From the IMG/VR virus record IMGVR_UViG_3300045988_003495: a stretch of 64,000 bases of DNA. One strand, given 5' to 3'. The notes under the pieces were generated by a model. The model was not told where the DNA came from. It was given only the letters and a program-made list of their open reading frames with translations, and searched no databases. The translations under genes were made by a program, and so were the position numbers. This DNA comes from a virus (taxonomy: Duplodnaviria > Heunggongvirae > Uroviricota > Caudoviricetes). Below, one piece after another: positions 6,657-60,915 of this stretch (positions are counted from its first letter, which is position 1; each line of letters opens with the position of its first letter).

Positions 6657-7538
6657 ATGAAAACATCTATCCGTGTTACAGTTCATTCACCAACTAAAGG
6701 GACTCATGAAGAAGAGTTTAACATCATCCAATTTCCTTCTGGTGAGATTGGTGGACACTTTTCGCCAGAGTTTGTTGATTTCACTGCTTATGCAGCATCA
6801 TCCATCAACAATGTGATTATGATTGTAAAAGGTTATGACAAGGACACATTGTTTGCTGTGGCACTTGCTAAAGAAGCAATTGATGATTTAATTCCTCATG
6901 ATTATGCTTTAAAGACTGTCATCTTTTACTACTTACCAAATGCACGATATGACCGTCACATGTTTAAAGGCGACGCAGCAGCTTTAAAGGTTTTTGCTAA
7001 ACAGGTAAATGCAATGGGATTTGGTGCAGTCTGTGCAGTTGACCCTCACAGTTACGTTCCAGATAACCTGTTTAACTGCTTCCAGAGTATTCCTCAAAAG
7101 GAGATTGCAGTCCACTATGCAAATGACCCACTGGTTGATTACTTAGTAGCCCCAGATGCAGGTGCTGCTAAGAAGGTTGCAGAGACCGCTAAAGAGGCGG
7201 ATAAACCATATATCACAATGTCTAAGGTGCGTAACCTTAAGACTGGTGAAATTACTGGTATGCGAATCCTTGATGATGTTGATTTGACAGATAAAACCGT
7301 CATGATTCTGGATGATATCTGTGATGGTGGTCGAACCTTCATAGAAGCAGCTAGACATCTTCGTGAAGCAGGTGCAAAACGTGTGGAACTCTATGTAACA
7401 CATGGTATCTTCTCTAAAGATGTTGAAAACCTTCTTGACAATGGCATTGACCACATCTACACTACAAACTCTTTAGGGGAAGCTAAAGACCGTGGCTTAA
7501 CACATTATGGTCAAGTTACTGTAGCAAATTTGGATTAG
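6657..7538 (+). CDS. prs: ribose-phosphate pyrophosphokinase (Prs) homologue; candidate ADP-ribose pyrophosphokinase
   Basis: 293 aa; phosphoribosyltransferase-type PRPP-binding loop (VMILDDICDGGRTF); RBS gagagagaaaactATG. Confidence 0.75.
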   Translation: MKTSIRVTVHSPTKGTHEEEFNIIQFPSGEIGGHFSPEFVDFTAYAASSINNVIMIVKGYDKDTLFAVALAKEAIDDLIPHDYALKTVIFYYLPNARYDRHMFKGDAAALKVFAKQVNAMGFGAVCAVDPHSYVPDNLFNCFQSIPQKEIAVHYANDPLVDYLVAPDAGAAKKVAETAKEADKPYITMSKVRNLKTGEITGMRILDDVDLTDKTVMILDDICDGGRTFIEAARHLREAGAKRVELYVTHGIFSKDVENLLDNGIDHIYTTNSLGEAKDRGLTHYGQVTVANLD

Positions 7539-7546
7539 GTATTAAA

Positions 7547-8038
7547 ATGGATAAGGGTTACTTCGAAAAATACCTAATATACGAACCGGAGACAGGTTTA
7601 CTAATTTGGAAAGTAACCCTTTGCAATACCGCTATTGCTGGTAATGTTGCTGGCACAAGGTCTAAGAAGGGTTATATCCAAGTCCAGATAAATAAGAAGA
7701 GGTACTATGCACATAATATTGCATGGATTATGTCTGGAGGTGAGATACCAAGTGGATATGAGATAGACCACATAGACCTTGATAAATCTAATAATAAGTT
7801 GGAGAATTTAAGACTTAGCACAAAGTCACAAAATCAGAGGAATAGGGGTATATACAAGAATAATAAAACTGGTGTGAAGGGTGTAAGTTTTTGTAAACAA
7901 ACAGGTCTTTACAAAGCAAGAGTCATGCTTTACCATAAAGAATACTTTTGTGGAAGATTTAAAACGGTAGAAGAAGCAAAAGAAGCTGTAATTAAAAAGC
8001 GAATAGAACTTCATGGTGAGTTTGCAAGACATAACTAA
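7547..8038 (+). CDS. HNH homing endonuclease with AP2-like DNA-binding domain
   Basis: 163 aa; HNH_3-type core (YYAHNIAWIMSGGEIPSGYEIDHIDLDKSNNKLENLR) followed by AP2-like segment (GVKGVSFCKQTGLYKARV...GRFKTVEEA). Confidence 0.6.
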   Translation: MDKGYFEKYLIYEPETGLLIWKVTLCNTAIAGNVAGTRSKKGYIQVQINKKRYYAHNIAWIMSGGEIPSGYEIDHIDLDKSNNKLENLRLSTKSQNQRNRGIYKNNKTGVKGVSFCKQTGLYKARVMLYHKEYFCGRFKTVEEAKEAVIKKRIELHGEFARHN

Positions 8039-35848: not shown

Positions 35849-35924
35849 TCTCTGTTTAGCTCAGCTTGGTAGAGCGTTCCGTTTGGGGCGGTAAGGCCGG
35901 AGGTTCAATTCCTCCAACAGAGAC
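35849..35924 (+). tRNA. tRNA-Pro (anticodon TGG)
   Basis: Manual fold: acceptor tctctgt/acagaga, T-arm ggagg-ttcaatt-cctcc, anticodon loop tttgggg. Confidence 0.65.
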
Positions 35925-35933
35925 CAAATTAAT

Positions 35934-36008
35934 GTTCCAGTAGACAAAATGGTATAGTCACCACTCTTTCAAAGTGGATATTTGAGGGTTCAAATCCCTT
36001 CTGGAACG
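35934..36008 (+). tRNA. tRNA-Glu (anticodon TTC)
   Basis: Acceptor gttccag/ctggaac, T-loop ttcaaat, anticodon stem-loop ccact-ctttcaa-agtgg; CCA encoded. Confidence 0.65.
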
Positions 36009-36103
36009 CCAGTTTTGACAGAAGACCAATTACAGCAAACTTAATCTTATTCATCTGAAGGTAAATCGGACAAAGAAGAGATTTGGTCTGGTCATTAAGA
36101 ATT

Positions 36104-36176
36104 GCGGGTATAGAGAAAGGGCGTCTCACATGTCTCATTAGCATGGTATCGGCAGGTTCGACTCCTGCACCCGCCT
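36104..36176 (+). tRNA. tRNA with CAT anticodon (Met or Ile2)
   Basis: T-arm gcagg-ttcgact-cctgc; anticodon loop ctcatta; acceptor pairing imperfect at the 5' end. Confidence 0.45.
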
Positions 36177-36256
36177 CCAAATTTACAGAAGACCGTATGC
36201 AGCAACAAACTACTTTTTGCGGATAAAAGAAAAAACACGGTCTGGCAATGTATTAA

Positions 36257-36330
36257 GGTTAGGAAGCACATAAGGTATGTGCGGTCGCCTGTTAAGCGAA
36301 TGGCACAGGGTTCGAATCCCTGACTAACCG
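36257..36330 (+). tRNA. tRNA-Asn (anticodon GTT)
   Basis: Anticodon loop ctgttaa; T-arm caggg-ttcgaat-ccctg; CCA encoded. Confidence 0.65.
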
Positions 36331-36342
36331 CCAAATTTAAAT

Positions 36343-36427
36343 GTGTCGTTATCCCGTAGATGGTAGCGGTGGGGACTGTAAATCCCTTGTCATTGAGACT
36401 CGGTAGGTTCGACTCCTACACGGCACA
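36343..36427 (+). tRNA. tRNA-Tyr (anticodon GTA), long variable arm
   Basis: 85 nt; anticodon stem-loop gggga-ctgtaaa-tccct; T-arm gtagg-ttcgact-cctac. Confidence 0.65.
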
Positions 36428-36452
36428 CCAACACTTAGCGAGATACTTAGTT

Positions 36453-36854
36453 ATGAGAGATGAAGTATACAAATCACAACTTGGTATGAGTTTGGGAACT
36501 GCACAAAACAGACTAGTAAAAGATTTGCTATTCGATTTTATATGTAAGACAAATCAAAATAGATGTTTTCAGTGCGGAAAAGAAATGACTAGGGATGATT
36601 TCTCTATCGAGCATAAGACTCCGTGGAGACACAAAGATAATGCAAAAGAACTTTTCTTTTCACTAGATAACATTTCTTATAGCCACCTGCGTTGCAACAT
36701 GAAAGCAGCCAGACCAGCACAGATTTATGATAGAAAGCCTAAGCCAATTAAACACGGCACTGCACACAGCTACTCTAAAGGTTGCAGATGTGATGAGTGT
36801 AGGCTGGCTAAGAATGCTGAGGGTAGGAAGCACTATAACCCCAGAAAGGCGTAG
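36453..36854 (+). CDS. HNH homing endonuclease inside the tRNA cluster
   Basis: CFQCGKEM...FSIEHKTPW...SHLRCNMKAA...CRCDEC; ORF track start 36360 overlaps tRNA-Tyr, in-frame ATG at 36453 is the likelier start. Confidence 0.6.
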   Translation: MRDEVYKSQLGMSLGTAQNRLVKDLLFDFICKTNQNRCFQCGKEMTRDDFSIEHKTPWRHKDNAKELFFSLDNISYSHLRCNMKAARPAQIYDRKPKPIKHGTAHSYSKGCRCDECRLAKNAEGRKHYNPRKA

Positions 36855-36886
36855 GAAGAAGTATTTAAGAAATGGCACATAGTTTT

Positions 36887-36959
36887 GGGGTATTAGTTTA
36901 GACGGTGAAAATACGGGATTATCTCTCCTGAGCCGCGAGTTCGATTCTCACATACCTCG
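36887..36959 (+). tRNA. tRNA with atypical anticodon loop (ttatctc, apparent anticodon ATC; Asp-like?)
   Basis: Good acceptor (ggggtat/atacctc), D-arm and T-arm (gcgag-ttcgatt-ctcac), but A34 and T37 are unusual; Asp is otherwise absent from the cluster. Confidence 0.4.
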
Positions 36960-37110
36960 CCAATTTTGAGAGGGCTATTTAGCCCCTCCCTTAAAGAGTT
37001 CTTACGAGTATCCTTTAAAGGAGCAGAAGACCAAATACAGCAAGTTACTTAAAATTTCAAGCCAATTCAATTTTGAAAAATTTAAAACTTGGTCTGGCTC
37101 AACAAATTTA

Positions 37111-37242
37111 CAGAAGACCGTTTACAGCAAAACTTAAACAATCTATTTCTCGGTAAAGAAAAGGCGAAGGTTCGATTCCTTCACTCGGCAGATGTCGAGT
37201 TGGTGTAATGGTAGCACTTAAGATGATAAACAACGGTCTGGT
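37111..37242 (+). ncRNA. circularly permuted tRNA-like module enclosed by an AGACCGTT/AACGGTCT helix (candidate Y-RNA-like RNA)
   Basis: Order along the strand: T-arm gaagg-ttcgatt-ccttc (37166-37182), acceptor-like hairpin actcggc-agat-gtcgagt (37183-37200), tg, D-arm-like gtgtaatggtagcac (37203-37217); 8-bp closing helix 37115-37122 with 37232-37239. Confidence 0.35.
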
Positions 37243-37392
37243 AATTATCTTTGCAGTAGCTTATGTGGCTAATTATGTCGTCCCATGAGTGCCGATGAAT
37301 TTCCTTAGCATGATTCTAGATTAGCTTAGTAGGAAATGACTCTACAGACCCTTTAGCAAGGTCTGCGTAGGTTACTGCAAAGGCAATTTAAT

Positions 37393-37465
37393 GGAAGTGT
37401 AGCAGAATGGTGATGCGGCAGACTTTTAATCTGACAGGCGATGGGTTCGAATCCCTCCACTTCTA
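37393..37465 (+). tRNA. tRNA-Lys (anticodon TTT)
   Basis: Acceptor ggaagtg/cacttct, anticodon loop cttttaa, T-loop ttcgaat (short T-stem), CCA encoded. Confidence 0.6.
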
Positions 37466-37472
37466 CCAAAAT

Positions 37473-37546
37473 GGTTCAGTCGCAGATAAGGTAATGCAGG
37501 GGTCTCATAAGCCCTATGAATGTGGGTTCGATTCCCATCTGAACCT
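37473..37546 (+). tRNA. tRNA with CAT anticodon (Met or Ile2)
   Basis: Acceptor ggttcag/ctgaacc, anticodon loop ctcataa, T-arm gtggg-ttcgatt-cccat, CCA encoded. Confidence 0.6.
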
Positions 37547-37551
37547 CCAAT

Positions 37552-37623
37552 TGTGGGTTAGCATAAATGGTAATGCAAACGGCTGATAACCGTTAGAAGA
37601 GGGTTCGATACCCTCACCTACAA
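37552..37623 (+). tRNA. tRNA-Ile (anticodon GAT)
   Basis: D-arm gcat-aaatggta-atgc, anticodon stem-loop aacgg-ctgataa-ccgtt, T-arm gaggg-ttcgata-ccctc, CCA encoded. Confidence 0.7.
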
Positions 37624-37641
37624 CCAATTTCAATAAAGTTG

Positions 37642-37670
37642 TTGACATTGATACGTGACTACTTTATAGT
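37642..37670 (+). promoter_or_regulatory. sigma70-like internal promoter in the tRNA cluster
   Basis: TTGACA, 17-nt spacer, TATAGT. Confidence 0.5.
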
Positions 37671-37874
37671 AACCTTAGTTTTCGTTGCGTAGCGTCTATT
37701 TTGCAAATTTAAAATAAATGCAAACGACAATGTTTTTCTGGCAGTAGCTTGATAGGCTAAACACCAGTGAGGTCTTCCAATCCCTCATCAAAGAATTTGG
37801 CGTACTAGCCCACGGTATGATTAATAAGGTGGGCATCTTTAAGGGCTTTCTAAGAGAGTCTTTAAAGATAATTA

Positions 37875-37953
37875 CGGGGCGTATCTCAGCTGTCTTCTAA
37901 ACAGCCGTTAACCGAGTAAGTGGAGTATGCGGGTTCGAGTCCTGCCGCCTCGA
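37875..37953 (+). tRNA. tRNA-like gene, internal arms atypical (possible anticodon TCT, Arg)
   Basis: Clear acceptor (cggggcg/cgcctcg) and T-arm (gcggg-ttcgagt-cctgc) with CCA; gctgt-cttctaa-acagc hairpin would give TCT but leaves no room for a normal D-arm. Confidence 0.35.
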
Positions 37954-38099
37954 CCAATTTAGTTAGCAGATTACTTAGACGACCTAAGCGGGTCTTCCTG
38001 TAGGGAGGTGGTCTGTATCTCATGTTTTCCAGAACATGTAAATAATCTGAGAAGGGGCTTTACAGTGTTGCGAAAATACGGTAAGCTTCGAATTATAGT

Positions 38100-38179
38100 G
38101 TGGGACGATGTTAAGACTCTAAGGCATGAGCAACGGCCTCCAAAACCGTTTCAAAGGGGTTCAACTCCTCCGTCCCATG
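38100..38179 (+). tRNA. tRNA-like gene, possible Trp (anticodon CCA), 80 nt
   Basis: Acceptor gtgggac/gtcccat, T-loop ttcaact, anticodon loop candidate ctccaaa; D-arm region longer than standard. Confidence 0.4.
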
Positions 38180-38195
38180 CCAAAGTCTTATTAGG

Positions 38196-38283
38196 GGTAG
38201 GTAGCGGCTAATGGCAGCCAAACAGTCTTGAAAACTGTTGCCACTGTAGAGATACGGTGAGGGTTCGACTCCTTTACTTACCG
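38196..38283 (+). tRNA. tRNA-Ser (anticodon TGA), long variable arm
   Basis: 88 nt; anticodon stem-loop acagt-cttgaaa-actgt; variable arm about 20 nt; T-loop ttcgact. Confidence 0.65.
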
Positions 38284-38541
38284 CCTAATAAGATTTAAAG
38301 CCAAGCTTCATTCGGATGTTGCTTTGGTATCCCTCGTGTATTGTCGTACACGCACAGTAAAGCACCTAGTAGGTGTCACGGAGAAGAGATAATATCAAGC
38401 TCTCCAAAGGTTCTAGTCACCGGATTAAACAAGACTATGCAAAGACCAAATTAGGTCTTTTTAGAGGGCTTCTAAGGTTATTACAGCTTGTTGTGGAACC
38501 TTGTTGCTTAGGTTCTTAGAAGTTCTCTAAAAAGATTTAAT

Positions 38542-38616
38542 GGGAGATTGACGGTAATTGGTAAACCTACCATCCTTAGAAGTTGGTGTTTGAGGGTTCG
38601 AATCCCTTGTCTCCTA
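38542..38616 (+). tRNA. tRNA with anticodon TAG (Leu-type anticodon on a short-variable-arm scaffold)
   Basis: Acceptor gggagat/gtctcct, anticodon loop cttagaa, T-arm gaggg-ttcgaat-ccctt, A73, CCA encoded; 75 nt. Confidence 0.45.
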
Positions 38617-38626
38617 CCAAATTAAT

Positions 38627-38699
38627 GCAGGTGTAGCAAAATGGTTATGCGGCTGACTCTTAATCAGTAAGACGATGGGTTCAATTCCCTCCACCTGTA
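38627..38699 (+). tRNA. tRNA-Lys (anticodon CTT)
   Basis: Anticodon stem-loop gctga-ctcttaa-tcagt; T-loop ttcaatt; CCA encoded. Confidence 0.65.
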
Positions 38700-38708
38700 C
38701 CAAACATT

Positions 38709-38781
38709 GGGGATGTAGTTTACATGGTTAAAACATAAGTTTTGCAAACTTAAGTACAGGGTTCAATTCCCTGCTTCTCCA
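38709..38781 (+). tRNA. tRNA-Ala (anticodon TGC)
   Basis: Anticodon stem-loop taagt-tttgcaa-actta; T-arm caggg-ttcaatt-ccctg; CCA encoded. Confidence 0.65.
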
Positions 38782-38790
38782 CCAATTAGT

Positions 38791-38862
38791 GCATCCATAG
38801 TTTAAACGGGAAAATTACAGTCTTCCAAACTGAGGTTGAGGGTTCGATTCCCTCTGGATGCT
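38791..38862 (+). tRNA. tRNA-Gly (anticodon TCC)
   Basis: Acceptor gcatcca/tggatgc; anticodon loop cttccaa; T-arm gaggg-ttcgatt-ccctc; CCA encoded. Confidence 0.65.
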
Positions 38863-38872
38863 CCAAATTAAT

Positions 38873-38945
38873 GCTCCTATCGTATAATTGGCTATTACGG
38901 TTGCCTTGTAAGCAACTTATCAGGGTTCGAATCCTTGTGGGAGCA
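38873..38945 (+). tRNA. tRNA-Thr (anticodon TGT)
   Basis: Anticodon stem-loop gttgc-cttgtaa-gcaac; T-arm caggg-ttcgaat-ccttg; CCA encoded. Confidence 0.7.
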
Positions 38946-39034
38946 CCAATTCAGAGGCCAAGTGAAAGACCGCTGGTGTCAACTGAAGACCGTAACAAAT
39001 TCCACGGAGTTGAGTTAGCGGCACAACTTCAGAC

Positions 39035-39106
39035 CTCTTTCATACTCGCTTAGTTTATATGGTAAAACACCACCCTTACAAGATGAAGAAAAAGGTTCAA
39101 GTCCTT
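39035..39106 (+). tRNA. tRNA, probable Val (anticodon TAC)
   Basis: Acceptor actcgct/agtgagt, T-arm aaagg-ttcaagt-ccttt, anticodon loop cttacaa with two mismatches in the anticodon stem. Confidence 0.45.
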
Positions 39107-39110
39107 TAGT

Positions 39111-39185
39111 GAGTACCATGTTCCAGTATCCCAATTGGCAGAGGATGCAAGCTCAAACCTTGTACTAGTGACGGTTCGAATCCGT
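39111..39185 (+). tRNA. tRNA with anticodon CAA (Leu-type anticodon, short variable arm)
   Basis: Acceptor gttccag/ttggaac, anticodon stem-loop gcaag-ctcaaac-cttgt, T-arm gacgg-ttcgaat-ccgtc, A73, CCA encoded. Confidence 0.5.
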
Positions 39186-39193
39186 CTTGGAAC

Positions 39194-39266
39194 ACCAATT
39201 TTGCAGGATTAGTTCAAATGGATAGAGCAACAGTCTACGAAGCTGTTAATAGGGGTTCGAATCCCT
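39194..39266 (+). tRNA. tRNA-Arg (anticodon ACG)
   Basis: Anticodon stem-loop acagt-ctacgaa-gctgt; T-arm agggg-ttcgaat-ccctt; CCA encoded. Confidence 0.7.
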
Positions 39267-39297
39267 TATCCTGCGCCAATTTAAAGAGGCTATTTAG

Positions 39298-39855
39298 ATG
39301 AGATATTTGAAGTATGCTTCATGGATTTTCCTAGCTTTACTAGAACCATTTGCAGCAACCCTAGCAGTCATCTTAGCACCTTTCGTAGTTCCATTCTACA
39401 GTGAGAAGAAAGGGCATCTACCTTTTGGATTCAGATGGATGGAGACCTATGACAACCCGATTGATGGTGATGAAGGCCACGTTAAAAGATGGGCTAAGAT
39501 TAGAAAGATTGGTAAGCTGGGTGTCTACATGCAGAGAGTCGGATGGCTCTGGAGAAACAAAGCTTATAACTTCTCTTACCATGTATTAGGAAGAGATGTA
39601 AAAGATGTTACTAAGTGGAAAGGTAATATCAACGTAAGTTCTGACCCTGAAGATAATCAGACTGGTTATCTCCTAATGTGGAATAGCAATGCTTGGGGAT
39701 TATTTGCTTTTATCCCATCAATTAAAGTCTTTGGTAAACAGTTTTACTGGAGAATTTATATTGGATGGAAACTAAAAAGCGTTGTCCCAGAAGAAAGAGC
39801 ATTCTCAAGGGAAAGAGTTATGTTGGCATTCTTTATTCATCCACTGAGAAAGTAA
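39298..39855 (+). CDS. hypothetical membrane protein encoded inside the tRNA cluster
   Basis: 185 aa; N-terminal hydrophobic region (WIFLALLEPFAATLAVILAPFVVPF); Trp-rich. Confidence 0.35.
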   Translation: MRYLKYASWIFLALLEPFAATLAVILAPFVVPFYSEKKGHLPFGFRWMETYDNPIDGDEGHVKRWAKIRKIGKLGVYMQRVGWLWRNKAYNFSYHVLGRDVKDVTKWKGNINVSSDPEDNQTGYLLMWNSNAWGLFAFIPSIKVFGKQFYWRIYIGWKLKSVVPEERAFSRERVMLAFFIHPLRK

Positions 39856-39863
39856 AGATTTAA

Positions 39864-39936
39864 AGGGGATTAGTTTACAAGGTTAAAACCTCGGTCTTTG
39901 AAATCGAAGAAGTTGGTTCAATTCCAACATCCCCCA
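39864..39936 (+). tRNA. tRNA-Gln (anticodon TTG)
   Basis: Anticodon stem-loop tcggt-ctttgaa-atcga; T-arm gttgg-ttcaatt-ccaac; A1-C72 mismatch; CCA encoded. Confidence 0.6.
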
Positions 39937-39941
39937 CCAAT

Positions 39942-40017
39942 GCTCCATTACTCCAATTGGCAGAGAGGCCAGACTTAAAATCTGTGTTATGTATCGGTTC
40001 GAATCCGATATGGAGTA
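39942..40017 (+). tRNA. tRNA with anticodon TAA (Leu-type anticodon, short variable arm)
   Basis: Acceptor gctccat/atggagt, anticodon stem-loop ccaga-cttaaaa-tctgt, T-arm atcgg-ttcgaat-ccgat, A73, CCA encoded. Confidence 0.5.
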
Positions 40018-40027
40018 CCAAATTTAG

Positions 40028-40100
40028 CGGTATAGCATAACTGGCAATGCAACAGTCTCTGAAGCTGTCCTATTAAGGTTCAAATCCTTATGCCGCTGCC
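40028..40100 (+). tRNA. tRNA-Gln (anticodon CTG)
   Basis: D-arm gcat-aactggca-atgc; anticodon stem-loop acagt-ctctgaa-gctgt; T-arm taagg-ttcaaat-cctta; CCA encoded. Confidence 0.6.
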
Positions 40101-40133
40101 ACTTCTAAGGGTTCTTACGAGAGTCCTTAAATG

Positions 40134-40206
40134 TGGCCTTATCATAAACGGTAATGACCTATGCTGTGAACATGGTCTATGCGGGTTCAAATCCCGTAGG
40201 TCACCC
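40134..40206 (+). tRNA. tRNA-His (anticodon GTG)
   Basis: Anticodon stem-loop ctatg-ctgtgaa-catgg; T-arm gcggg-ttcaaat-cccgt; discriminator C73; CCA encoded. Confidence 0.65.
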
Positions 40207-40215
40207 CAATTTATA

Positions 40216-40289
40216 GTCCAAGTAGCTTATATGGTTAAAGCGCGTGTCTGAAAAACATGAGAAGAGGGTTCAAATCCCACTGGACTACC
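40216..40289 (+). tRNA. tRNA-Phe (anticodon GAA)
   Basis: Acceptor tagtcca/tggacta; anticodon stem-loop cgtgt-ctgaaaa-acatg; T-loop ttcaaat. Confidence 0.55.
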
Positions 40290-40307
40290 AATTTCAAAGG
40301 TGCTTAA

Positions 40308-41041
40308 TGAAAGAGATGACAGAACAAGGTAAGGAGATTTTTAATCTCTTAAAAACCGGTAAAGGGTTTTCTAACCCACTTATTACTGGTGCAGCAGTTC
40401 TCGGTGGAACCGTAGCTGCCTCTACATCACTTGTAAACTCTATTAGTTCTGTAACAGACCCTACAATGAAGGATAAACTTGTTGCTGCTGGACTTACAAC
40501 AGTCCTTCTAAACAGCTTTACAACAAGCCTGACAAGCACTACAGCAACTACTAAGACCCTAACAGACTATGGTCAAAAATCTATTGATGAGTTTTCATCA
40601 CGTATGCAGGTAGCAAAGGGATACTCCAATGTTATGGGTGCAGCAGGAGAACAAGTTGGTTGTACACCATTCAGTGGTATTATGGGTGTTGCTACAGAGT
40701 ATGGTCAGCAAGCTATTGACACTATTAATAATGCACTAGATGGCGTTAACGATGTATTAAGTGACTTACAAGATGCTATTGATAAGGGTCTTGATACTGT
40801 TTCTGATTTAGCTAACCAAGCTGTTAGTAAGATTAATGAAGGTATCTCAAAGATTACAGCTTATGCAGATGAAGTTGTGCAGATGATTGAAGAAGAAGCT
40901 GCCCTTATTGCAGAGTACCTTAAAACGAATATCAATGGGTTCTTAGCAGGTATCTTACCAGACTGGTTTGATGATGCTTGTAAAACTGGTGTAATTGACA
41001 CTATTGCAACACCAGAAATGAAGAACGCATTACAGAAATAA
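40308..41041 (+). CDS. hypothetical Ser/Thr-rich protein
   Basis: ORF track start 40244 overlaps tRNA-Phe; ATG at 40308 (MKEMTEQGKE) is the likelier start. Confidence 0.4.
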
Positions 41042-41042
41042 T

Positions 41043-41132
41043 GGAAGATTAACCCTAAAAGGTAAGGGAGCAGTTTGCTAAACTGCCAGTAGCTGAGAAA
41101 TCGGTGTACCAGTTCAAGTCTGGTATCTTCCT
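41043..41132 (+). tRNA. tRNA-Ser (anticodon GCT), long variable arm
   Basis: 90 nt; anticodon stem-loop gcagt-ttgctaa-actgc; T-arm accag-ttcaagt-ctggt; CCA encoded. Confidence 0.7.
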
Positions 41133-41140
41133 CCAATTTT

Positions 41141-41213
41141 GAATCCGTGACAGAAATGGATATGTGCCTGTCTGCAAAACAGGTTTATAAGGGTTCAAGT
41201 CCCTTCGGATTCT
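41141..41213 (+). tRNA. tRNA-Cys (anticodon GCA)
   Basis: Anticodon stem-loop cctgt-ctgcaaa-acagg; T-arm aaggg-ttcaagt-ccctt; CCA encoded. Confidence 0.7.
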
Positions 41214-41255
41214 CCAAGTTATTTTACTCTCTCTCTCAATTAAAATAATAATAAT

Positions 41256-50391: not shown

Positions 50392-51744
50392 ATGTGGAAT
50401 CCAATTGTTAATGTAGATATTACATTGAACACCGCAGGAACTACAAGAGAAGGTTTTGGTTTGCCACTATTCTTAGCTTCAACAGATAACTTTGAAGAAA
50501 GAGTACGCGGTTACACTTCCTTAACTGAAGTTGCTGAAGATTTCGATGAGAATACTGCTGCATATAAGGCTGCTAAACAACTTTGGAGTCAGACTCCTAA
50601 AGTAACTCAGCTTTATATTGGTAGACGTACTATGCAGTACACTGTATCAATTCCTGATACCGTTACCGAAAGTACAGACTACTCAATTACTGTAGCTGTT
50701 GGCGGTGGAATTTCTCAACCATACCAGTACACATCAAAAAGCTCAGACACTGCTGAGAAAGTTTTGCAACAGTTTAAAACACAGATTGAAGCTGACCCAA
50801 CAATCAAAGATAAGGTTTCTGTGAATGTAACTGGTAGTGCTGGTTCTGCCACAATGATTATTACCAAAGCTGGTGATAATGACTTTGTGAAAGTAACAAC
50901 CACAGCACAGACTGTATATATTGCAAGTACAACTGCCGATACAGCATCAACTGCTCTGGCAGCCATTGAAGCTTATTCTACCGACTGGTATTTCATTGCA
51001 GCAGAAGACAGAACTCAACAGTTTGTCTTAGCAATGGCTTCTGAGATTCAGGCTCGTAAGAAAATCTTCTTCACTGCTAACTCTGATGTATCAGCACTAC
51101 AAGGCACAGAATTAAACAGTGCAAATGATGTTCCAGCACAGCTTGCTAAGAGTATGTACACTCGCACAGTTTGCCTGTGGCATCACACAGCAGCAGAAGA
51201 CTATCCAGAAATGGCATACATTGCTTATGGTGCTCCATACGATGCAGGGTCAATTGCTTGGGGTAATGCTCAGTTGACTGGTGTAGCTGCTTCTCTACAG
51301 CCAGCTAATAAGAGACCTCTGACAAGTATTCAGAAGTCAGCTTTAGATGCACGTCACTGTAACTTTATTGACCTTGATGGTGGTGTTCCAGTGGTTCGTA
51401 GAGGGATTACTTCTGGTGGGGAATGGATTGATATCATCCGTGGTGTTGACTGGTTAGAATCAGACCTGAAAACTTCTCTGAGAGACTTGCTAATTAACCA
51501 GAAGGGTGGTAAGATTACTTATGATGATACTGGTATTACCCGTATTCGTCAAGTCATTGAAACCTCTCTACAAAGAGCAGTCAACAGAAACTTCCTGTCA
51601 TCTTACACAGTTAATGTTCCTAAAGCCTCTCAAGTTGCTTTGGCAGACAAGAAAGCTCGTATCCTGAAAGATGTTACCTTCTCAGGTATCTTAGCAGGGG
51701 CTATCTTGGATGTTGACTTGAAAGGTACAGTGGCTTACGAATAA
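50392..51744 (+). CDS. tail sheath protein (probable)
   Basis: 450 aa ORF immediately followed by a 148 aa ORF, a strong terminator and a chaperone pair; sheath/tube pattern. Confidence 0.5.
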   Translation: MWNPIVNVDITLNTAGTTREGFGLPLFLASTDNFEERVRGYTSLTEVAEDFDENTAAYKAAKQLWSQTPKVTQLYIGRRTMQYTVSIPDTVTESTDYSITVAVGGGISQPYQYTSKSSDTAEKVLQQFKTQIEADPTIKDKVSVNVTGSAGSATMIITKAGDNDFVKVTTTAQTVYIASTTADTASTALAAIEAYSTDWYFIAAEDRTQQFVLAMASEIQARKKIFFTANSDVSALQGTELNSANDVPAQLAKSMYTRTVCLWHHTAAEDYPEMAYIAYGAPYDAGSIAWGNAQLTGVAASLQPANKRPLTSIQKSALDARHCNFIDLDGGVPVVRRGITSGGEWIDIIRGVDWLESDLKTSLRDLLINQKGGKITYDDTGITRIRQVIETSLQRAVNRNFLSSYTVNVPKASQVALADKKARILKDVTFSGILAGAILDVDLKGTVAYE

Positions 51745-51759
51745 TAGAGGTAAATTGGA

Positions 51760-52206
51760 ATGGCTATGTATCAGCAATATTCCCCTAAAGACGTTGTATG
51801 TAGCTGGAACGGCATTGCTATTGAAGGCTTTGCTCCAGACTCATTCTTGCGTCTACAGAGAACATCACCACTTGTGACACCAGTTGTTGGTGCAGGTGGT
51901 CAGGTTGCTCTGACAAGAAATGCAGACAAGACAGGTACTATTGAGATTGAGCTAATGCAGACTTCTCTCTCTAACCAGATGCTTTCTGCAATTCAAGCTA
52001 AACAAGACAATATGGAACTTGAAGAAGATATCTCTTCTAACTTCGTAATCTACGACCCATCAGGCTCTGTTCTGGCAACTGGTATTAACGCTTGGTTGCA
52101 GGAATTACCACAGGTTGAACTTGGTCGTGACCAGAACTCTAAGACTTGGATTTTTGGTTGTGAGAAGCTAGACTATACTTCTACAATTCCAGCGTCAAGT
52201 GTTTAA
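51760..52206 (+). CDS. tail tube protein (probable)
   Basis: 148 aa; followed by terminator 52218-52252. Confidence 0.5.
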   Translation: MAMYQQYSPKDVVCSWNGIAIEGFAPDSFLRLQRTSPLVTPVVGAGGQVALTRNADKTGTIEIELMQTSLSNQMLSAIQAKQDNMELEEDISSNFVIYDPSGSVLATGINAWLQELPQVELGRDQNSKTWIFGCEKLDYTSTIPASSV

Positions 52207-52217
52207 TAAATCCTATA

Positions 52218-52252
52218 AGGGGGAGACTTTAAAAGGTCTTCCCCTTTTTTGT
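52218..52252 (+). terminator. intrinsic terminator after the tube gene
   Basis: gggggagac-tttaaaag-gtcttcccc followed by tttttt. Confidence 0.65.
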
Positions 52253-52279
52253 TTCTTTTAAAAGTATTAAGGAATCACA

Positions 52280-52678
52280 ATGAAAACAGAATCTAGAGTA
52301 ATTAACGGCAAGAAAGTAAATATCGTTCTGCTTGGGGCAAGAGATGGTATTAAGATGTCTATGAAGTTGGGTAAAATTGTTGTTCCAACTTTTGCACAGA
52401 TGCTATCAAGTCTGACTGACAAGGGTAAGAAAGAAGCTCCAACGGTTCCATTTAAAGAACTTGTTGAAGCTTGTTTTGACAGAATTGAAGAAATTAACCT
52501 TGAAGAAATGGCTACCCTGTTATTTCAAGGGGCAACTGTTGATGACTTCCCACTTAATATTGATACGTACTTCCAAGCAAACTATGGTGAATTTATTGAT
52601 TACTTAGCATTTGCGCTGGAGGCAAACTTCGGAAGTTTTTTCGAAGCAAGCATTTTCAAAAGCCTAACTTCTCAGTAA
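52280..52678 (+). CDS. tail assembly chaperone (G-like)
   Basis: 132 aa ORF just upstream of tape measure; contains slippery heptamer near its 3' end. Confidence 0.5.
   Translation: MKTESRVINGKKVNIVLLGARDGIKMSMKLGKIVVPTFAQMLSSLTDKGKKEAPTVPFKELVEACFDRIEEINLEEMATLLFQGATVDDFPLNIDTYFQANYGEFIDYLAFALEANFGSFFEASIFKSLTSQ
52636..52642 (+). other. candidate -1 programmed frameshift site (slippery heptamer T_TTT_TTC)
   Basis: Heptamer is in X_XXY_YYZ phase with ORF 52280-52678; the -1 frame from 52642 runs without a stop into ATG 52681 and the 52681-52920 ORF. Confidence 0.5.
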
Positions 52679-52680
52679 AC

Positions 52681-52919
52681 ATGGGTAACACTCTACAGAC
52701 ACCACTAACTGATGCTGCTGTAGAGGCAACCTATGAAGAAGCAGACGAGATGAAATTTGTGCTTGCTATTTATGGTATGGAAGGGTGTAAAGAAACACTT
52801 GACCAACTCTTTGCTATGACATTCTCTGATTTATTATCATTGAGACAATTTCTTGAAATTCAGAGGTCGTATAAAGAGGAAATTGCTTACAACGAACTTA
52901 GAAGAGCAGGAAAAATGTA

Positions 52920-52920
<1 letters not shown>
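52681..52920 (+). CDS. tail assembly chaperone extension (GT-like; possibly made only as frameshift fusion)
   Basis: 79 aa ORF in the -1 frame relative to 52280-52678, ending by ATG-overlap with the tape measure start. Confidence 0.4.

Positions 52921-60915
<7,995 letters not shown>

What the first reader, a model, noticed from the sequence alone, without database searches (positions are those of the whole stretch)
52280..52920. Programmed -1 frameshift site linking the two tail chaperone ORFs
The heptamer T_TTT_TTC at 52636-52642 lies in X_XXY_YYZ phase within ORF 52280-52678. Reading in the -1 frame from 52642 gives an open frame that runs without a stop into ATG 52681 and the 52681-52920 ORF. 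This matches the conserved G/GT-type chaperone frameshift found upstream of tape measure genes in many tailed phages.
Basis: seen in the sequence. Interest (0 to 1): 0.45.

Follow-up and report, generated by a model that had tools for sequence, protein, structure and literature searches.

The report
Tail chaperone -1 frameshift, FelixO1-like phage
This is the standard slippery site at which some ribosomes slip back one base to make a longer second form of a phage tail-assembly helper protein; the site is real and strongly conserved, but it is already annotated and published for close relatives of this phage.

Summary
T_TTT_TTC (52636-52642) is in X_XXY_YYZ phase in the tail assembly chaperone gene 52280-52678. 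The -1 frame is open from 52600 to 52920, which gives a 213-aa G-T fusion.

The window is a Felixounavirus, with the gene order sheath, tube, chaperone, tape measure.

In one sequence the pattern is only suggestive: chance gives about 10%, and the window holds one chance look-alike at 7526. Comparison with relatives settles it:
- The heptamer is kept in phase in all 12 lineages examined, with chaperone identity down to about 40%.
- Third-codon-position identity rises to 0.96 at the site, against 0.40 overall.
- -1-frame stops lie 0-3 nt upstream of the heptamer in three lineages.
- The ORF2 ATG is lost or absent in several lineages.
- A Buttiauxella prophage-like locus has non-slippery Ser-Phe-Phe codons and a separate single-ORF G-T gene.

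I found no conserved stimulatory RNA structure.

The same frameshift product is deposited for phages Meda, Moogle and Michonne, and my predicted fusions for Meda and Moogle match the deposited proteins exactly. It is also mentioned in three genome announcements. Verdict: real, ordinary and already known, though not shown experimentally in anything I found.

The parts
52280..52678 (+). ORF1, the tail assembly chaperone ('G' form, 132 aa), made by standard translation. Stop TAA at 52676-52678.
   Evidence: Pfam PF21822 Phage_TAC_15, E=2.6e-19, 70.5 bits against a cutoff of 22. PHROG 1613 tail assembly chaperone, E=5.6e-48.
52636..52642 (+). Slippery heptamer T_TTT_TTC, in X_XXY_YYZ phase. The P-site codon UUU and the A-site codon UUC are both read by tRNA-Phe(GAA), and both can re-pair with UUU UUU one base upstream.
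   Evidence: for phase. Conserved in phase in all 39 loci and in L041, L043, L044, L166 and L080. It is the only in-phase T_TTT_TTC in the window.
52600..52678 (+). Overlap in which the 0 frame (ORF1) and the -1 frame are both open. This is the only stretch where a -1 shift could join the two ORFs.
   Evidence: In relatives the 5' limit shrinks to 0-3 nt upstream of the heptamer: L043 has TAG abutting it, P778 (L006) and L166 have TAA one codon upstream.
52642..52920 (+). -1-frame part of the fusion: linker RSKHFQKPNFSVN plus the 'T' domain, 92 codons and a stop. With 52280-52642 it encodes the 213-aa G-T fusion.
   Evidence: The fusions predicted the same way for Meda and Moogle are identical to the deposited proteins AXY86324.1 and YP_009145710.1. 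The window fusion aligns across the junction with a single-ORF 201-aa protein of Buttiauxella noackiae, E=5e-13.
52681..52920 (+). The stretch usually annotated as a separate 79-aa 'ORF2 / tail assembly chaperone'. Its ATG has no Shine-Dalgarno sequence and is not conserved.
   Evidence: PHROG 4963, E=2.8e-55. The 18 nt upstream are CCTAACTTCTCAGTAAAC, with no SD. The ATG is ATA in L011. Kolesnikvirus (L005, L039) has no ATG/GTG/TTG for 165 nt after the slip site.
52643..52662 (+). 3' flank GAAGCAAGCATTTTCAAAAG. It is nearly invariant across Ounavirinae genera and is coding in both frames (0 frame EASIFK, -1 frame RSKHFQK). It has no stable structure.
   Evidence: blastn finds only this 41-nt stretch (92.7% identity) between the window and Erwinia phages. 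Third-position identity is 0.96 here against a mean of 0.40. It is not conserved in the more distant L041, L043, L044, L166 and L080. Folding gives -3.4 kcal/mol, z = +1.08.
52619..52623 (+). GGAGG, Shine-Dalgarno-like, 12 nt upstream of the heptamer. A possible lineage-specific stimulator of the dnaX type.
   Evidence: Read. Present in Felixounavirus, Mooglevirus, L043 and L044. Absent in Kolesnikvirus (TTGAAAAG), L037 and L041 (TTAGAAGC) and P778 (GGAAG). Not a conserved part of the signal.
51760..52206 (+). Tail tube gene (148 aa). This is the expected upstream neighbour and, by analogy with lambda gpV, the presumed binding partner of the T domain.
   Evidence: Pfam PF11681, E=2.6e-07. PHROG 280. 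The called-gene tables of relatives name it Phage_Tube_PhiTE.
52920..55127 (+). Tape measure protein gene (735 aa). Its ATG overlaps the stop of the -1 frame (TAATG at 52918-52922).
   Evidence: Pfam TMP_3, E=2.6e-16. PHROG 4036, E=0. Sequence.

Best explanation
This is a programmed -1 ribosomal frameshift in the tail assembly chaperone gene of a FelixO1-like myovirus (genus Felixounavirus).

Most ribosomes translate 52280-52678 and release the 132-aa chaperone, the 'G' form. A minority slip at U_UUU_UUC (52636-52642). At that point peptidyl-tRNA-Phe sits on UUU and aminoacyl-tRNA-Phe on UUC, and both re-pair one base back on UUU UUU. The next codon read is then CGA at 52642, and translation runs on in the -1 frame to 52920. 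The result is a 213-aa G-T fusion with the junction ...GSFF-RSKHFQKP...

By analogy with lambda gpG/gpGT, the shared G domain coats the tape measure protein. The T domain, present in few copies, recruits the tail tube protein. The fixed slip frequency sets the ratio of the two forms. Neither form is expected in the virion.

Shown here: the anatomy, conservation of the site at single-codon resolution, loss of any other way to express the T domain in relatives, and the existence of a natural unshifted G-T protein.

Inferred: the ribosomal (rather than transcriptional) level of the shift, its efficiency (probably a few per cent), and the roles of G and T. No conserved RNA stimulator was found, so the heptamer and its immediate context probably suffice for a low-level shift.
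For: 1. Anatomy: the heptamer is in phase and the -1 frame is open from 52600 to 52920.
2. Context: sheath, tube, TAC, tape measure, Dit-like. ORF1 matches Pfam Phage_TAC_15 at E=2.6e-19.
3. Identity of the window: 98.8% to Felixounavirus genomes.
4. AGTTTTTTCGA is present in phase in all 39 loci fetched from Felixouna-, Moogle-, Susp- and Kolesnikvirus, Yersinia phage P778 and IMG/VR contigs. It is also kept in the more distant L041, L043 and L044, Erwinia MAG L166 and the GC-rich L080.
5. Comparing genera, third-codon-position identity peaks at 0.96 at the site against 0.40 overall. blastn between the window and Erwinia phages detects only the 41 nt around the site.
6. -1-frame stops lie 0-3 nt upstream of the heptamer in L043, L006 and L166, and the 0-frame stop is as close as +34 nt. 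This pins the shift to the heptamer.
7. The ORF2 ATG is mutated to ATA in L011. Kolesnikvirus has no start codon for 165 nt, and L037 has none for 117 nt.
8. Natural control: the Buttiauxella noackiae locus L040 encodes Ser-Phe-Phe with non-slippery TCA TTC TTC. It carries a second gene whose single ORF is G-like plus T-like, and that protein aligns across the window's predicted junction at E=5e-13.
9. My predicted fusions equal the deposited frameshift products of Meda and Moogle.
10. UUY A-site codons and all-pyrimidine heptamers are frameshift-prone in E. coli (PMC4066793).
Against: There is no experimental evidence. I found no fusion protein, reporter assay or proteomics for any FelixO1-like phage.

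There is no conserved downstream hairpin or pseudoknot, and no Rfam match.

This window does have an in-frame ATG at 52681, three bases after the ORF1 stop, so some free 79-aa T protein made by reinitiation cannot be excluded.

A U7 transcript would give the identical protein, so sequence analysis cannot tell a ribosomal from a transcriptional shift.
Confidence: 0.9

Rival explanations
1. There is no recoding. ORF2 (52681-52920) is translated on its own from ATG 52681, for example by termination-reinitiation after the ORF1 stop three bases upstream. The heptamer is coincidental.
For: The window and most Felixounavirus genomes have the ATG, and most GenBank records annotate two separate genes. 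A heptamer in the overlap has about a 10% chance expectation in a single sequence.
Against: There is no Shine-Dalgarno sequence before the ATG. The ATG is ATA in L011. It is absent in Kolesnikvirus, L037, L041 and L043, which still keep the T domain open in the -1 frame from the heptamer. The -1-frame peptide between the heptamer and the ATG (RSKHFQKP) and its synonymous sites are conserved. The heptamer codons are invariant in 12 lineages, and differ only where a separate GT gene exists.
Confidence: 0.04
2. The shift is transcriptional. RNA polymerase slips on the T6 run and adds one U. Normal translation of the U7 mRNA then gives the same G-T protein.
For: The site is a homopolymer run. In this window a small hairpin (52616-52632, CTGGAG/CTTCGG) lies 3 nt upstream of the run, which resembles a terminator-like or slippage-promoting context. 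The protein product would be indistinguishable.
Against: Efficient bacterial slippage is described for runs of about 9 A or T. Shorter motifs need a strong 5'-adjacent nascent hairpin (PMC5009743). The run here is only 6 T. The upstream hairpin is weak (-7 kcal/mol) and not conserved: Kolesnikvirus gives -1.5 kcal/mol, and the structures differ between lineages. What is conserved is the in-phase X_XXY_YYZ register with C at position 7, which matters for tRNA re-pairing and not for polymerase slippage.
Confidence: 0.05
3. A real -1 ribosomal frameshift that depends on a specific stimulator: either the nearly invariant 3' tract CGAAGCAAGCAUUUUCAAAA acting as an unstructured sequence element, or the GGAGG 12 nt upstream acting as in dnaX.
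For: The 3' tract is 92.7% identical between Felixounavirus and Erwinia phages although the chaperones are only about 40% identical. The GGAGG spacing of 12 nt falls in the range reported for dnaX-type stimulation (from my own knowledge of Larsen et al. 1994; not checked here).
Against: Both frames are coding through the tract, so dual coding alone can explain the conservation. The tract diverges along with amino-acid changes in both frames in L041, L043, L044, L166 and L080, which all keep the heptamer. GGAGG is missing in five lineages. It is part of the Leu-Glu-Ala codons.
Confidence: 0.15

Closest known systems
Annotated frameshift products of FelixO1-like phages: Salmonella phage Meda AXY86324.1, Citrobacter phage Moogle YP_009145710.1 and Michonne YP_009177317.1. 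Genome announcements PMC4319497, PMC4591319 and PMC5543628 (Mijalis).
   Same: Orthologous gene, same heptamer, same junction. The fusions I predicted at T_TTT_TTC for Meda and Moogle are letter-for-letter the deposited proteins. [quoted passage not shown]
   Different: Nothing of substance. The window's own fusion sequence (213 aa, Thr at residue 54) is not in the protein collection as such. Most Felixounavirus records, including the FelixO1 RefSeq, still annotate two separate ORFs. All of these are predictions, not experiments.
Phage lambda gpG/gpGT (Levin, Hendrix and Casjens 1993; Xu, Hendrix and Duda 2004, 2013, 2014)
   Same: Two overlapping ORFs between the major tail protein gene and the tape measure gene, with the downstream ORF in the -1 frame. 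An X_XXY_YYZ heptamer lies near the end of the first ORF. The shift is low-level and sets a fixed ratio. G binds the tape measure and T binds the tail tube subunit (review PMC5009743).
   Different: The heptamers differ: lambda uses G_GGA_AAG (from memory), here it is T_TTT_TTC. Lambda is a siphovirus and this is a contractile-tail phage. I did not test sequence similarity to gpG; the Pfam family here is Phage_TAC_15. Efficiency and protein roles are measured for lambda and only inferred here.
Phage P2 E/E+E' tail chaperone frameshift (Christie et al. 2002)
   Same: A contractile-tail phage with a -1 frameshift between tail tube and tape measure genes. As I recall, it slips on a T-rich run. 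The review says its efficiency is 2-3 fold higher than lambda's.
   Different: A different protein family and different neighbouring genes. The exact P2 slip sequence was not checked here.
E. coli dnaX and IS911/IS3-type -1 frameshift signals
   Same: Tandem tRNA slippage on an X_XXY_YYZ heptamer in a bacterial ribosome.
   Different: Those signals carry defined stimulators: an upstream SD-like sequence together with a downstream hairpin or pseudoknot. Here no downstream structure is conserved, and the SD-like GGAGG is present in only some lineages.

Membership tests
G/GT-type tail assembly chaperone frameshift (Xu, Hendrix and Duda 2004) | The two ORFs lie between the major tail/tube gene and the tape measure gene. 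| tested here: met
   Sheath 50392-51744, tube 51760-52206, ORF1 52280-52678, ORF2 52681-52920, tape measure 52920-55127.
G/GT-type tail assembly chaperone frameshift (Xu, Hendrix and Duda 2004) | The downstream ORF overlaps the end of the first ORF in the -1 frame and has no conserved initiation signal of its own. | tested here: met
   The -1 frame is open from 52600. There is no SD. The ATG is lost in L011 and absent in Kolesnikvirus, L037, L041 and L043.
G/GT-type tail assembly chaperone frameshift (Xu, Hendrix and Duda 2004) | A canonical slippery heptamer in 0-frame phase inside the overlap. | tested here: met
   T_TTT_TTC at 52636-52642. Its class is frameshift-prone in E. coli.
G/GT-type tail assembly chaperone frameshift (Xu, Hendrix and Duda 2004) | The slip site and frame arrangement are conserved in relatives despite protein divergence. 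| tested here: met
   Twelve lineages, with chaperone identity down to about 40%. The only exception has a separate single-ORF GT gene.
G/GT-type tail assembly chaperone frameshift (Xu, Hendrix and Duda 2004) | A fusion protein is made at a low, fixed ratio to the short form. | not testable with these tools
   Needs a Western blot, mass spectrometry or a reporter assay. No such data were found in the literature searched.
G/GT-type tail assembly chaperone frameshift (Xu, Hendrix and Duda 2004) | Both products are needed for tail assembly and are absent from virions. G binds the tape measure and T binds the tube protein. | not testable with these tools
   Inferred from lambda (review PMC5009743).
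Pfam PF21822 Phage_TAC_15 / PHROG 1613 | Score above the curated threshold over the full domain. | tested here: met
   70.5 bits against a cutoff of 22, residues 9-124 on profile positions 1-124 of 127. PHROG 1613 E=5.6e-48.
Solved tail assembly chaperone folds | Structural similarity of the G domain to a solved tail assembly chaperone. | tested here: inconclusive
   [not shown]
dnaX/IS-type stimulated -1 frameshift signal | A conserved downstream hairpin or pseudoknot 5-9 nt after the heptamer. | tested here: not met
   The 58 nt downstream fold at -3.4 kcal/mol, z = +1.08. RNAalifold consensus over seven lineages is -1.3 kcal/mol. Per-lineage folds differ. No Rfam hit. Only the GC-rich L080 has a strong hairpin, 4 nt downstream.
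Programmed transcriptional slippage | A homopolymer run of about 9 or more, or a shorter run with a strong 5'-adjacent nascent-RNA hairpin. | tested here: not met
   The run is T6. The upstream hairpin is weak and not conserved. Criteria are taken from PMC5009743.

The most novel reading that the evidence does not exclude
The roughly 20-nt tract just 3' of the heptamer (52643-52662) is almost invariant across four Ounavirinae genera although it forms no stable structure. It could be a new kind of unstructured, sequence-specific stimulator or tuner of -1 frameshifting, acting for example through rRNA or ribosomal contacts or through the nascent or encoded peptide, and not merely a dual-coding stretch. 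A related point is that this family may show evolutionary interchange between frameshifting and gene duplication, as in the Buttiauxella G plus separate GT genes.
Probability: 0.1. Interest if true: 0.4.

Novelty: already known. Interest (0 to 1): 0.1.

Why it matters
It matters mainly for annotation. Most Felixounavirus records, including the FelixO1 reference, list two separate 'tail assembly chaperone' ORFs. The expressed products are most likely a 132-aa protein and a 213-aa frameshift fusion.

FelixO1-like phages are used for Salmonella and E. coli typing and biocontrol, so correct structural-gene annotation has some practical value.

For biology it adds nothing new. It is one more, very cleanly conserved, example of the tail chaperone frameshift that is near-universal in long-tailed phages.

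The family does offer a tidy comparative data set:
- an invariant heptamer;
- -1-frame stops that pin the site to a single codon;
- one relative that replaced the frameshift with a duplicated gene;
- no conserved RNA stimulator.

This could serve for teaching or for benchmarking frameshift predictors.

Tried and rejected
- **Downstream stimulatory structure.** Folding 52643-52700 gave -3.4 kcal/mol, worse than shuffles. Folding 52636-52740 found only a hairpin at 52680-52735, 44 nt after the heptamer and too far away to act at the slip. RNAalifold over seven lineages found no consensus structure. Per-lineage folds were inconsistent.
- **Rfam**, E-value mode, on 52000-53200: only chance-level hits.
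- **Upstream hairpin 52616-52632 and GGAGG as conserved elements.** Rejected because they are not conserved.
- **15-mer scan of IMG/VR with AGTTTTTTCGANGCA.** 102 of 120 hits were chance matches outside chaperone genes. The scan did turn up L080.
- **Search with the fusion protein for natural single-ORF fusions among close relatives.** All 92 hits were G-only proteins of about 130 aa. The natural fusion came instead from the genomic context of P0114.
- **Genome-contig scan with the G alignment.** It returned a single locus, L166.
- **PDB sequence search and Foldseek.** Nothing significant.
- **Efficiency of U_UUU_UUC.** I looked for a stated value in PMC4066793. Only class-level rules are in the text; the values are in a figure that is not held.
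- **Proteomic or experimental evidence for FelixO1-like phages.** None found.

Full report
**1. What is in the sequence**

ORF1 runs from 52280 to 52678 and encodes 132 aa. ORF2 runs from 52681 to 52920 and encodes 79 aa. ORF1 codons start at positions that are 2 mod 3.

The -1 frame has its last stop, TGA, at 52597-99. It is open from 52600 through ATG 52681 to TAA 52918-20. That stop overlaps the ATG of the next gene (TAATG). A -1 shift at the heptamer gives a 213-aa protein with the junction ...LEANFGSFF/RSKHFQKPNFSVNMGNTLQ....

**2. Context**

The stretch 51700-53300 is 98.8% identical to Felixounavirus genomes (E. coli phage ECML-1 and many others). 295 phage records match. The gene order is:
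- tail sheath, 50392-51744 (Pfam DUF3383, PHROG 205);
- tail tube, 51760-52206;
- an intrinsic terminator, 52217-52246;
- ORF1, which matches Pfam PF21822 Phage_TAC_15 (E=2.6e-19) and PHROG 1613;
- ORF2, which matches PHROG 4963 'tail assembly chaperone';
- tape measure protein, 52920-55127;
- a Dit-like protein, 55127-55924.

This is the canonical position of the G/GT chaperone pair.

**3. Is it more than chance?**

In a single sequence, only weakly.
- The window's long ORFs contain 65 in-phase X_XXY_YYZ heptamers in 16,548 codon positions. A 26-codon overlap therefore has about a 10% chance of holding one.
- In-phase T_TTT_TTC occurs only once in the window, at this site.
- As a control I listed every in-phase heptamer followed by a long open -1 frame. 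A second case appears, A_AAT_TTG at 7526. There the -1 ORF is an independent HNH endonuclease gene with its own ATG, downstream of a PRPP-synthetase-like gene.

The pattern alone is therefore not proof.

**4. Comparative evidence, which is decisive**

(a) AGTTTTTTCGA is present in the same phase in all 39 loci fetched. These come from Felixounavirus, Mooglevirus, Suspvirus and Kolesnikvirus (Erwinia phage phiEa21-4), Yersinia phage P778 and IMG/VR contigs. It is also present in:
- the more distant metagenomic contigs L041, L043 and L044, which are 47-53% identical in the chaperone;
- an Erwinia MAG contig, L166;
- a GC-rich relative, L080, with the same sheath, tube, chaperone, tape measure, Dit-like module.

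(b) blastn between the window and the Erwinia phages detects only 41 nt, 52625-52665, at 92.7% identity. I made a codon alignment of the predicted fusions from eight lineages. Across genera, third-position identity is 0.40 overall and rises to 0.96 in the nine codons centred on the slip site. This is the classical synonymous-site signature of a recoding site with dual coding.

(c) The permitted shift window shrinks to the heptamer itself:
- In L043 a -1-frame TAG directly abuts the heptamer.
- In P778 and L166 a TAA lies one codon upstream.
- In P778 the 0-frame stop is only 34 nt downstream.

(d) Independent initiation of ORF2 is not conserved. The window's ATG has no Shine-Dalgarno sequence. 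It is ATA in L011. Kolesnikvirus has no ATG/GTG/TTG for 165 nt after the slip site, and L037 has none for 117 nt. In all of these the T-domain residues (AAVE..Y, CKET, LREFLE, SYKEE) stay conserved in the -1 frame.

(e) There is a natural control. In a Buttiauxella noackiae chromosome (L040) the chaperone keeps the residues Ser-Phe-Phe but encodes them as TCA TTC TTC, which is not slippery. It is followed by a second gene whose single 201-aa ORF has a diverged TAC_15 domain plus a T-like extension. That protein aligns with the window's predicted fusion right across the junction (window residues 81-208, E=5e-13). So the G-T architecture exists as a real protein. The slippery codons are dispensable exactly where the fusion is encoded directly.

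**5. Stimulators**

I found none that is conserved.
- The 58 nt after the heptamer fold no better than shuffles (-3.4 kcal/mol, z = +1.08).
- RNAalifold over seven lineages gives -1.3 kcal/mol.
- Per-lineage folds differ, both upstream and downstream.
- Rfam finds nothing.
- A hairpin at 52680-52735 (part of the -24.7 kcal/mol fold) starts 44 nt after the heptamer. That is too far away to sit at the ribosome's mRNA entry channel during the slip.
- GGAGG at 52619-23, 12 nt upstream, could act like the dnaX SD-like element, but it is absent in five lineages.

Dual coding explains the near-invariant 3' tract in Ounavirinae. The 0 frame reads EASIFK and the -1 frame reads RSKHFQK, so every nucleotide is non-synonymous in one frame or the other. 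In the more distant relatives the tract changes together with amino-acid changes in both frames.

Only the GC-rich L080 has a strong hairpin, 4 nt after the heptamer. It is not significant against shuffles in that composition.

A low-level shift driven mainly by the heptamer fits what is described for lambda G/GT. It also fits the E. coli rules that UUY A-site codons and all-pyrimidine heptamers are shift-prone (PMC4066793).

**6. Rivals**

- Independent translation of ORF2 is contradicted by points 4c to 4e.
- Transcriptional slippage on T6 would give the same protein, so sequence alone cannot exclude it. But efficient slippage needs about 9 A or T, or a strong adjacent nascent hairpin (PMC5009743). 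Here the hairpin is weak and not conserved. The conserved feature is the codon register with C at position 7.

**7. What is already known**

Three GenBank records carry a joined 'tape measure chaperone frameshift product' at this gene: Salmonella phage Meda, and Citrobacter phages Moogle and Michonne. The fusions I predicted at T_TTT_TTC for Meda and Moogle are found letter-for-letter as AXY86324.1 and YP_009145710.1.

Three genome announcements mention it:
[quoted passage not shown] - Mijalis (PMC5543628).

All cite Xu, Hendrix and Duda 2004.

Most other records, including the FelixO1 RefSeq, still list two separate ORFs. I found no experimental demonstration for this phage group.

**8. Structure**

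An AlphaFold2 model of ORF1 (mean pLDDT 78) shows an N-terminal beta-hairpin followed by helices. The slip site lies in the long C-terminal helix 102-130.
- Foldseek against the PDB gave nothing significant.

This is inconclusive for fold-level membership. Pfam and PHROG membership is clear.

**9. Verdict**

The site is a genuine, very well conserved programmed -1 frameshift of the G/GT tail-chaperone kind. It is already annotated and published for orthologues, so it is ordinary and of low interest. The main use of the result is to correct the two-ORF annotation.

Noticed in passing
L040:3001-3986 (Buttiauxella noackiae JPRU01000001.1, 1022942-1029322): A chromosomal, prophage-like relative has no slippery heptamer: Ser-Phe-Phe is encoded TCA TTC TTC. 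Instead it has two adjacent genes, a 126-aa G-type chaperone and a 201-aa single-ORF protein with a diverged G domain (31% identical) plus a T-like extension. The frameshift seems to have been replaced by gene duplication. No sheath gene lies within 3 kb upstream, and the upstream genes have no Pfam or PHROG hits.
   Followed up: partly
L080:4030-4064 (IMGVR_UViG_3300035661_000106): A GC-rich distant relative with the same tail module keeps T_TTT_TTC in phase. A GC-rich hairpin (GCAAAGGGGCUCGCCCCCUUGC) follows 4 nt downstream and may be a lineage-specific stimulator. It is not significant against shuffles in that composition.
   Followed up: partly
window 52217-52256: A strong intrinsic terminator lies between the tail tube gene and the chaperone gene: a 13-bp stem, AAGGGGGAGACTT/AAGGTCTTCCCCTT, then a T run. 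It is annotated as a terminator in phage Meda. It would lower chaperone and tape-measure transcript levels relative to sheath and tube.
   Followed up: partly
window 35850-41216: A cluster of 25 tRNA genes. It includes tRNA-Phe(GAA) at 40215-40290, which reads both slip-site codons, and tRNA-Arg(ACG) at 39203-39278, which would read CGA, the first -1-frame codon. Whether the phage's own tRNA-Phe affects slippage is unknown.
   Followed up: no
window 52680-52735: A hairpin encloses the ORF2 ATG: outer stem CATGGGT/ACCTATG, inner 8-bp stem CTCTACAG/CTGTAGAG. In Moogle- and Susp-like phages a different stem (CAGACCCC/GGGGCTG) sits at the same place, and deeper lineages have none. It is too far from the heptamer (44 nt) to stimulate the shift, but it could mask the ATG.
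   Followed up: partly
window 7526-7532: An in-phase A_AAT_TTG lies two codons before the stop of a PRPP-synthetase-like gene (6657-7538), with 168 open -1-frame codons after it. The downstream ORF (7547-8038) is an HNH homing-endonuclease-like gene with its own ATG, so this is a chance look-alike of a frameshift site.
   Followed up: partly
L011:1857-1905 (IMGVR_UViG_3300045988_004167): A Felixounavirus contig in which the ORF2 start ATG is ATA while everything else, including the heptamer, is intact. This is a natural knockout of independent ORF2 initiation.
   Followed up: yes
window 52918-52922: The stop of the -1-frame (GT) reading frame overlaps the tape measure start codon (TAATG). Only ribosomes in the -1 frame, or ones initiating at ATG 52681, terminate right at the tape measure start. 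The arrangement is conserved in the relatives looked at (in the -1 stop sits next to the tape measure start).
   Followed up: no
[not shown]
   Followed up: no
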